Shown here in pieces: positions 59,522 to 60,815 of a stretch of 64,000 nt of DNA. The stretch lies in contig JARDVH010000031.1 in the NCBI GenBank assembly GCA_030324005.1, positions 35,112,583-35,176,582 on the forward strand, read 5' to 3'. The position numbers were made by a program, and so were the translations under genes. The notes below the pieces were generated by a model. It searched no databases. It was not told the DNA's origin and worked only from the letters and a program-made list of their open reading frames with translations. This DNA comes from Negaprion brevirostris (lineage: Eukaryota). Position 1 is the stretch's first letter. Each line of letters begins with the position of its first letter.

Positions 59522-59634
59522 CTGGAAGTAACCATACATGGCTTCCTCTACCAGGCGGATGCTGAATGGCGTGGGCTTGTAGTTGTCAATAGCATCAAAC
59601 ACCGTCTTCATAGCCAAGTGAGCTATCCAATAAG
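59522..59634 (-). CDS. NAGK: N-acetylglucosamine kinase exon (~exon 6, 113 bp), antisense within an NCKAP1 intron; functional status unknown
   Basis: Minus strand: ttttcatttgcag| acceptor, cag|gttaga donor; (A)YWIAHLAMKTVFDAIDNYKPTPFSIRLVEEAMYGYFQ continues in phase from the 60705-60815 exon; recalled human NAGK reads AYWIAHQAVKIVFDSIDN...AMFHYFQ. Confidence 0.88.
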
Positions 59635-59865
59635 CTGCAAATGAAAAGTATTTTAGCTATATTCATTGCTATTATCTCTTCTTCACTCCCCCACCAAAGA
59701 CACTGCCTATTGCTAGAGGAAGGGGGTGTGAGGGATAGTGGCGGCAGCAGTTGTTGTGCACAGTCCTTCTACCAAGTGTAGGGAGGCTGAATGATAAGGA
59801 CCTAGTGGCTCAGATCAAGACTGGATTTTAGGTTTGAAAGACTTTGCATCAACACAACGGGAGCC

Positions 59866-60167
59866 CCGGTGGCACAGTGGTTAGCACTGCTGTCTCAGTG
59901 CTAGGGACCCGGGTTCAATTCCCGGCTTGGGTCACTGTCTGTGTGGAGTTTGCACCTTCTCCCCATGTCTGCGTGGGTTTCCTCCCACAGCCCAAAGATG
60001 TGTGGGTTAGGTGGACTGGCCATGCTGAACTGACCCTAGTCTCAGGGGATTAGCAGAATAAATGGGTGGGATTCCAGGAATAGGGCCTGGGTGGGATTGT
60101 GGTCGGTGCAGAATCGAGGTGGGCTAAATGTTCTCCTTCTGCACTGTAGGGGTTCTATGATTCTATG
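59866..60167 (+). mobile_element. HE1-like SINE within the NAGK intron
   Basis: Intact head ggtggcacagtggttagcactgc and tail ttctatgattctatga. Confidence 0.9.
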
Positions 60168-60704
60168 AACACAGTCCATCCTTGCATGCAGAGGATTCCT
60201 TGCAGAGTGGATACAATGGGCAGTCAGTCACCGTTATCAAGAGGGCATCCTTCATTGAATCTGGAACTCTACAACGTTGCTATACAACTACTTATGGTAC
60301 CCAGGCCCACATTCTAACTGCTTTCGAGGTAAAGAAGTTCATCCCCATTTCCATATTGGACTAATGTGTGTTGATAATCACCAATTTTGGACTCCCTGCA
60401 AGTGGAAATATGTTCTCTATCTCCACCCTATCAATCACCTTCATACTTTAAGTCAGATCAGTCTTCCCTGGTAGAGAGAAAATATCAGTTCAATCAGTCC
60501 CGGCAGGTCTGTTATCCTTGTAACTCCAGCGGAAAGAATGTTGTGCGAGAGTGGTGTAAAATTCCAAACTCTCCGGAACAAGCAGAAAGCACTTGAACTC
60601 TTACAACATGCTGAAATATGGGCCAGTGTCTTGCCCATACACACCTCTCCCTGCCTGTACGCCAAAGCCCACACTTCCTGAAAACATGATTCCTCTTCAC
60701 TCAC

Positions 60705-60815
60705 CTGATCCCTCGTCTCCCATCAGGTGACCCCAACCTCCACAGCCGATCTCCGATCCGTCCGGGTTCACGAGTTTGCAGTTGGAACCAGTTCCCGAGA
60801 TCAGCACAATTCCAC
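60705..60815 (-). CDS. NAGK: N-acetylglucosamine kinase exon (~exon 5, 111 bp), antisense within an NCKAP1 intron; functional status unknown
   Basis: Minus strand: pyrimidine-rich ...cacccaccag| acceptor, cag|gtgagt donor; reads [36 protein letters not shown], the GTGSN and GGWG..GDEGS motifs of NAGK (BadF/BadG/BcrA/BcrD ATPase family). Confidence 0.88.

What the first reader, a model, noticed from the sequence alone, without database searches (positions are those of the whole stretch)
59522..60815. Two intact NAGK exons and their intron lie antisense inside an NCKAP1 intron
Seen: two minus-strand exons (111 and 113 bp) with good acceptors and donors (cag|gtgagt, cag|gttaga). They splice in phase to [74 protein letters not shown], with no stop or frameshift. 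The ORF track shows only part of one exon. Known: these are the ATP/substrate-binding motifs of N-acetylglucosamine kinase (GlcNAc salvage; also phosphorylates muramyl dipeptide upstream of NOD2 in mammals). The exon sizes equal those I recall for human exons 5-6, and human NAGK (2p13) is not a neighbour of NCKAP1 (2q32). The intron is retained, so this is not a processed retrocopy. No N gap separates these exons from NCKAP1 exon 62418-62534. By eye I found no other NAGK exons. Inference: (a) a duplicated or transduced two-exon fragment, (b) a relocated NAGK interleaved antisense with NCKAP1, with other exons outside the window or in gaps, or (c) a chimeric contig.
Basis: partly seen in the sequence, partly recalled or inferred. 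Interest (0 to 1): 0.85.

Follow-up and report, generated by a model that had tools for sequence, protein, structure and literature searches.

The report
Misassembled NAGK exons in shark NCKAP1
Two intact exons of the sugar-kinase gene NAGK sit inside an NCKAP1 intron in this shark assembly, but they are the only copies, they fit a gap in the NAGK gene on another scaffold, and they were likely joined here by an assembly error through a very common repeat, so this is likely not biology.

Summary
The two exons are real and intact (111 and 113 bp, good splice sites, 35/36 and 33/37 residues identical to Mustelus NAGK). They occur once in the assembly. The rest of NAGK lies elsewhere: exons 3, 4, 7, 8 and 10 on scaffold C1, exons 1-2 on an unplaced 1.8 kb contig, exon 9 not found. 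Between exons 4 and 7 on C1 is a 2,791-N gap. The 1.6 kb block fits it in size, strand and splice phase. In the window the block starts at a 100-N gap and ends in a 156 bp high-copy repeat (60965-61120), where GC falls from 0.48 to 0.36. The block's GC matches the C1 locus (0.45). The run identical to the window shows one contig over the block at 1.17 times flank depth and no second version, which argues against a duplicate. No listed contig in four runs bridges the repeat, though short-read contigs would break there even if the join were real. Best reading: a chimeric contig joined through the repeat (0.88). A recent real move or duplication is not excluded (about 0.09). Raw read pairs or long reads would settle it.

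The parts
60705..60815 (-). NAGK exon 5 (111 bp, starts and ends in phase 1), intact; the only copy found in the assembly
59522..59634 (-). NAGK exon 6 (113 bp, starts in phase 1, ends in phase 0), intact; the only copy found in the assembly
59635..60704 (-). NAGK intron 5, holding a common SINE-like repeat at about 59859-60172
   Evidence: up to 22 overlapping hits on the held C31 stretch
60816..60964 (-). Likely the 3' end of NAGK intron 4; no second match in the assembly; 60842-60964 has GC 0.46, above all 19 tiles on the NCKAP1 side
   Evidence: X1 contig identical over 60180-60999
60965..61120 (+). 156 bp 3' end of a high-copy SINE-like repeat with a TTGTTC-type tail; inferred join point of the chimera
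   Evidence: 2549 candidates, 40 scored, best 88-94% identical; summed depth about 5e5 against about 8 beside it
59367..59462 (.). Second high-copy repeat fragment, forming the left end of the gap-free piece
   Evidence: 1972 candidates, 40 scored
59267..59366 (.). 100-N gap at the left edge of the NAGK block; no overlap between its flanks
61121..62417 (+). NCKAP1 intron sequence (GC 0.36); single contigs of runs X2 and X7 link parts of it to the NCKAP1 exon
62418..62534 (+). NCKAP1 exon (residues 991-1029 of P0226)
54236..54334 (+). Preceding NCKAP1 exon (approximate tblastn limits), interrupted by a 10-N gap at 54266-54275

Best explanation
The two exons are the only copies of NAGK exons 5 and 6 in the assembly, and they were likely attached to the NCKAP1 intron by an assembly error rather than by evolution. 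Inferred steps: (1) NAGK intron 4 and this NCKAP1 intron each carry a same-orientation copy of a 156 bp high-copy repeat. (2) The contig builder entered the NAGK copy and left through the NCKAP1 copy, making one 4.2 kb chimeric piece (59367-63570). (3) A scaffolder placed that piece by its larger NCKAP1 part (2.45 kb against 1.6 kb), left a 100-N gap before the foreign overhang, and left a 2,791-N gap where the exons belong on C1. In the animal, NAGK would be an ordinary ten-exon gene unlinked to NCKAP1.
For: Shown: (a) each exon has one match in the genome (1 match, 2 candidates scored; 1 of 1). (b) Full-length Heptranchias NAGK gives 7 matches from 10 candidates: 5 on C1 and these 2 on C31. 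(c) A 2,791-N gap (C1:5358485-5361275) lies between exon 4 (ends 5362691) and exon 7 (starts 5357433); the block is 1,598 bp, or 1,754 with the repeat. (d) Strand and phase fit: C1 exon 4 ends in phase 1, window exon 5 starts in phase 1, exon 6 ends in phase 0, C1 exon 7 starts in phase 0. Skipping the 224 nt would shift the frame. (e) The C1 exons are as conserved as the window's: 25/29, 43/46, 26/29, 33/33 and 57/63 against 35/36 and 33/37 to Mustelus. All 3 of 3 exon 5 differences listed for runs X2 and X7 are silent. (f) The best GC change point in the gap-free piece is 61107 (61087-61277 within 2 log-likelihood units), at the repeat's 3' end. Block GC is 0.48 (0.455 without exons and SINE), the NCKAP1 side 0.362, the C1 locus 0.452. 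(g) Run X1 has one identical contig over 60180-60999, depth 8.4 against 9.12 and 6.86 on the NCKAP1 side (ratio 1.17), with no other letters listed. Ratios in X7, X11 and X2 are 1.08, 1.14 and 0.58. (h) The assembly is fragmented: median gap-free piece 2.0 kb on C31 and 1.3 kb on C1, C1 stretch 38% N, NAGK exons 1-2 on an unplaced 1,806 bp contig, NAGK exon 9 and one NCKAP1 exon not found. (i) In 2 of 2 species with both proteins listed, NAGK and NCKAP1 lie on sequences of different length: Heptranchias 198.6 and 101.2 Mb, Mobula birostris 211.0 and 198.1 Mb. (j) RagTag subtracts an unaligned overhang from the inferred gap and writes 100 N when the result is too small (PMC9753292, two passages); that this assembly used such a tool is inferred.
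Against: No read-level disproof of the join. Contigs stop at the repeat in 4 of 4 runs, but they would stop at a repeat of this copy number even if the join were real, and only 32 of about 18,000 pieces were listed. The block does not overlap either flank of the C1 gap, so about 1.0-1.2 kb between them is unseen. If gap sizes came from a reference genome, the C1 gap would also appear after a real loss of the segment. 100-N gaps are common (28 of 84 on the held C31 stretch), so the left gap is weak evidence. A 5'-truncated repeat abutting unique DNA is also what a real breakpoint could look like. Contig depth is a rough measure and cannot exclude a heterozygous extra copy. X1 may be the assembly's own source, so it is not independent. 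A decayed exon 9-like relic on C25 shows that stray NAGK pieces do exist in this genome.
Confidence: 0.88

Rival explanations
1. A real, very recent duplication: exons 5-6 were copied into the NCKAP1 intron (for example by recombination between repeat copies), and the source copy is hidden in the C1 gap.
For: Both ends of the block lie in repeats, as repeat-mediated copying would give. The C1 gap could hide a source copy. An older stray NAGK exon 9-like relic exists on C25.
Against: X1 shows one contig with no other letters over 60180-60999 and a depth ratio of 1.17, not 2. No second assembly match for either exon or for 60175-60964 beyond short repeat bits. The C25 relic is decayed (15/22 residues, no AG acceptor, 74 nt), unlike these exons.
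Confidence: 0.05
2. A real, recent cut-and-paste move or translocation: the single copy of exons 5-6 now lies in the NCKAP1 intron, and NAGK on C1 is either newly broken or completed by trans-splicing.
For: Single copy and single-copy depth fit this as well as a misassembly. The block keeps the GC of its source locus. A reference-sized gap on C1 would appear either way.
Against: All NAGK exons found are intact and equally conserved. Exon 4 to exon 7 splicing would shift the frame. The break falls in a repeat of very high copy number in a low-depth, fragmented assembly, the ordinary site of a misjoin. It needs a rare move of non-mobile DNA fixed on both chromosomes (inference).
Confidence: 0.04
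3. NAGK is a nested or interleaved antisense gene within NCKAP1, with its other exons nearby or in gaps.
For: The two exons lie antisense between two NCKAP1 exons with no N to the right.
Against: Exons 3, 4, 7, 8 and 10 lie in order on C1 and exons 1-2 on C13901; none on 264 kb of C31. Two other elasmobranchs carry the genes on different sequences.
Confidence: 0.01

Closest known systems
Interchromosomal chimeric contig placed by reference-guided scaffolding (RaGOO, PMC6816165; RagTag, PMC9753292; passages read)
   Same: One gap-free piece aligns to two chromosomes, the switch lies in a repeat, and the piece sits where its larger part belongs. In the RaGOO passage read, alignments under 10 kbp are dropped when chimeras are sought, so a 1.6 kb foreign part would pass such a check.
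   Different: The pipeline used for this assembly is not known; the mechanism is inferred from gap sizes and layout.
Vertebrate N-acetyl-D-glucosamine kinase NAGK (PF01869; PDB 2CH5/2CH6; Mustelus asterias XP_078080645.1)
   Same: Exons 5-6 encode residues 119-193 of Heptranchias NAGK and complete the reading frame of the C1 exons.
   Different: Only the assembly position differs; nothing in the coding sequence is unusual.
Nested antisense gene in a host intron (recalled concept)
   Same: Intact antisense exons between two host exons.
   Different: Only 2 of 10 exons are there, with no start or stop, and the rest of the gene is on other scaffolds.
Shark tRNA-derived SINEs such as the V-SINE HE1 with its partner LINE HER1 (table row seen in PMC3747384)
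   Same: The join repeat is the 3' end of a longer high-copy element with a simple-repeat tail.
   Different: Family membership was not tested against any repeat library; the V-SINE likeness is recalled.

Membership tests
NAGK coding exons | Sequence match to NAGK with open frame and canonical splice sites | tested here: met
   E 1.1e-16 to 2CH5/2CH6; 35/36 and 33/37 to Mustelus; AG and GT ends
Repeat-mediated chimeric contig | A high-copy repeat at the switch between the two sources | tested here: met
   60965-61120, 2549 candidates; GC change point 61107
Repeat-mediated chimeric contig | The foreign part is missing from its home locus and fits a gap there | tested here: met
   2,791-N gap between exons 4 and 7; strand and phases fit
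Repeat-mediated chimeric contig | Single-copy depth over the foreign part | tested here: met
   Contig depth ratios 1.17, 1.08, 1.14 and 0.58 in 4 of 4 runs; a rough measure
Repeat-mediated chimeric contig | No molecule spans the join; spanning reads lead to the home locus | tested here: inconclusive
   0 of 4 runs list a bridging contig, but contigs break at such repeats regardless; no raw or long reads were on offer
Nested or interleaved gene | The whole gene lies within or among the host's introns | tested here: not met
   Other exons on C1 and C13901
Processed retrocopy | Introns lost | tested here: not met
   The 1,070 bp intron 5 is present
Segmental duplication or transduced fragment | A second copy, or doubled depth | tested here: not met
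   One match per exon; one contig, no variants, ratio 1.17 in X1; a heterozygous copy is not excluded
Segmental duplication or transduced fragment | Target-site duplication or insertion tail at the block's ends | tested here: inconclusive
   No shared word flanks the window's repeat, but 7 of 11 other copies show none either and 4 show only 5-7 bp words; the left end is at a gap

The most novel reading that the evidence does not exclude
In this shark lineage the only copy of NAGK exons 5-6 has really moved, with its intron, into an NCKAP1 intron on another chromosome, so NAGK is either freshly disabled or assembled by trans-splicing; or a brand-new identical duplicate sits there.
Probability: 0.08. 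Interest if true: 0.7.

Novelty: not a real feature. Interest (0 to 1): 0.06.

Why it matters
As biology it likely does not matter: NAGK appears to be an ordinary gene scattered over three scaffolds by a fragmented assembly. As a caution it does: a gap-free stretch in this assembly is not proof of physical linkage, so foreign exons found in other windows should first be checked for a repeat at the join and a matching gap at the home locus. If the join were real, it would be a rare natural case of internal exons of a housekeeping and immune kinase (NAGK is required for NOD2 activation per the title of PMC9477735, seen as a search listing only) leaving their gene.

Tried and rejected
Overlap between the block and the flanks of the C1 gap: none beyond SINE hits. 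A search for an unplaced contig overlapping the right flank of the C1 gap gave only repeat hits, 40 of 2835 candidates scored. A search for a contig continuing from 59266 gave only the window itself. Target-site duplication test: uninformative. Comparing the two halves of the repeat with 11 other copies showed no switch that I can interpret (0.922 and 0.936). Flank overlap across 10-N and 100-N gaps did not separate gap types (3 of 45 on C31 overlap). Runs X11, X2 and X7 show no cover at 60860-60944, and the exon 5 contigs of X2 and X7 end near 60841. I considered a true breakpoint there, but X1 runs through it unbroken, the stretch has NAGK-like GC, and the tool says a hole proves nothing. 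No RNA holder was listed, which says nothing about expression. Rfam gave 0 matches on 57500-63570. No further NAGK exon was found on 70 kb around the C25 relic. Literature: 10 papers hold both NAGK and NCKAP1; by title and abstract start none concerns their genomic arrangement (one search, supplements not read). Two look-ups of earlier scan notes returned nothing. Left open: no DNA of relatives' NAGK or NCKAP1 loci was read, and the left gap at 59267-59366 was not tested with sequencing runs.

Full report
Observation. The two minus-strand exons are as described: 60705-60815 (111 bp) and 59522-59634 (113 bp), with AG acceptors and GT donors, in phase and without stops. The first matches human NAGK chains 2CH5 and 2CH6 at E 1.1e-16. 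Of the three elasmobranch proteins I compared, Mustelus asterias NAGK is nearest: 35/36 and 33/37 residues. They lie between two NCKAP1 exons, 54236-54334 and 62418-62534, of an otherwise ordered plus-strand NCKAP1 gene. The piece 59367-63570 has no N.

Where the rest of NAGK is. Each exon has one match in the 2.69 Gb assembly, the window itself (1 match, 2 candidates; 1 of 1). Full-length Heptranchias NAGK gave 7 matches from 10 candidates: exons 3, 4, 7, 8 and 10 in order on C1 at 5.347-5.366 Mb, and exons 5 and 6 in the window on C31. Exons 1 and 2 are on the unplaced 1,806 bp contig C13901. An intact exon 9 was not found with the one query used; its only match was a decayed relic on C25. 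Exon numbers are mine, from tiling along the Heptranchias protein.

The fit. Between exon 4 and exon 7 on C1 lies a 2,791-N gap at 5358485-5361275. The window's block is 1,598 bp from the left gap to the repeat, or 1,754 bp with it, and lies on the same strand. Exon 4 ends in phase 1 and exon 5 starts in phase 1; exon 6 ends in phase 0 and exon 7 starts in phase 0. Without the 224 nt the frame would shift. The C1 exons show no decay: 25/29, 43/46, 26/29, 33/33 and 57/63 to Mustelus. The 3 exon 5 differences listed for runs X2 and X7 are all silent. So C1 looks like a working gene that needs exactly these two exons.

The join. A 156 bp repeat occupies 60965-61120. It drew 2549 candidates, of which 40 were scored, at 87-94% identity, and a summed contig depth near 500,000 against about 8 beside it. 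It is the 3' end of a longer SINE-like element; I did not test its family. The best GC change point in the gap-free piece is 61107, range 61087-61277. Left of it GC is 0.48, or 0.455 without exons and SINE, like the C1 NAGK locus (0.452). Right of it GC is 0.362. The left end of the block is another high-copy repeat beside a 100-N gap. The GC contrast shows the block has not lived long in this intron, whichever way it got there.

Sequencing runs. I laid 4 of the 24 listed runs on 60180-62700; all are assembled contigs, not raw reads. X1 is identical to the window and may be its source. One X1 contig runs from the NAGK side 35 bases into the repeat (to 60999, depth 8.4); the next starts at 61091 (depth 9.12), then 61460-62700 (6.86). 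X11, X2 and X7 have NCKAP1-side contigs starting at 61093-61098, so the repeat's tail is in the NCKAP1 intron in those runs too. No listed contig bridges the repeat in any run. This is neutral on its own, because contigs break at such repeats and the list is cut to 32 of about 18,000 pieces. It does show that the join rests wholly on how one repeat was resolved. Depth ratios of block to NCKAP1 side are 1.17, 1.14, 0.58 and 1.08, and X1 lists no other letters over the block. That speaks against a second copy, with the caveat that contig depth is rough.

Context. The assembly is fragmented: 84 gaps in 264 kb of C31 (median gap-free piece 2.0 kb), 51 gaps in 130 kb of C1 (1.3 kb, 38% N), a 10-N gap inside an NCKAP1 exon, and one NCKAP1 exon not found. 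In Heptranchias and Mobula birostris, the 2 species for which both proteins were listed, NAGK and NCKAP1 lie on sequences of different length, so on different chromosomes or scaffolds. RagTag's gap formula subtracts an unaligned overhang and falls back to 100 N when the result is too small (PMC9753292, two passages). RaGOO's chimera check drops alignments under 10 kbp (PMC6816165, passages). These would explain the layout, but the pipeline behind this assembly is not known to me.

Mechanism and rivals. Best reading (0.88): the contig builder crossed from a repeat copy in NAGK intron 4 to a copy in the NCKAP1 intron, and the chimeric piece was scaffolded by its larger NCKAP1 part. Shown: single copy, matching gap, phase fit, repeat at the compositional break, undoubled depth. 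Inferred: two repeat copies, the crossing, the scaffolding logic. Against it: no read-level disproof, no overlap with the C1 gap flanks, and a gap sized from a reference would also follow a real loss. Rivals: a very recent duplication (0.05), a real recent move of the only copy (0.04), a nested whole gene (0.01, refuted).

Novelty. Not a real feature, in all likelihood. One literature search for both gene names gave 10 papers, none on their arrangement by title and abstract start; supplements were not read. Interest 0.06. The bold reading, a true relocation or fresh duplicate, keeps about 0.08 and would merit 0.7.

Noticed in passing
L049:1498-1577 (G000:C25:40962007-40962086): A decayed NAGK exon 9-like relic on another scaffold: 15/22 residues to Mustelus, 74 nt, a GTAAGT donor but no AG acceptor after a pyrimidine tract. 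No other NAGK exon within 70 kb. It may be an old duplicate fragment.
   Followed up: partly
L050 (G000:C13901:368-913): NAGK exons 1 and 2 on an unplaced 1,806 bp contig, with phases that fit exon 3 on C1. Several sized gaps upstream of exon 3 on C1 could hold it.
   Followed up: partly
window 54266-54275: A 10-N gap falls inside an NCKAP1 coding exon.
   Followed up: no
G000:C31:35180778-35206014: The second-to-last NCKAP1 exon was not found in the assembly with the one query used; a 1,274-N and a 327-N gap lie in the interval.
   Followed up: partly
window 60180-62455, run X11: X11 carries the same organism code as X1 but differs from the window by about 2% with indels, much like X2, while X1 is identical. 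The label may cover more than one lineage.
   Followed up: no
window 58036-58391: A repeat flanks the 150-N gap at 58143-58292 as an inverted pair; many copies lie in the held stretches.
   Followed up: no
G000:C1:5357072-5357171 and 5355704-5355803: 100-N gaps whose flanks repeat 46 and 33 bases, that is, overlapping contig ends left unmerged.
   Followed up: no
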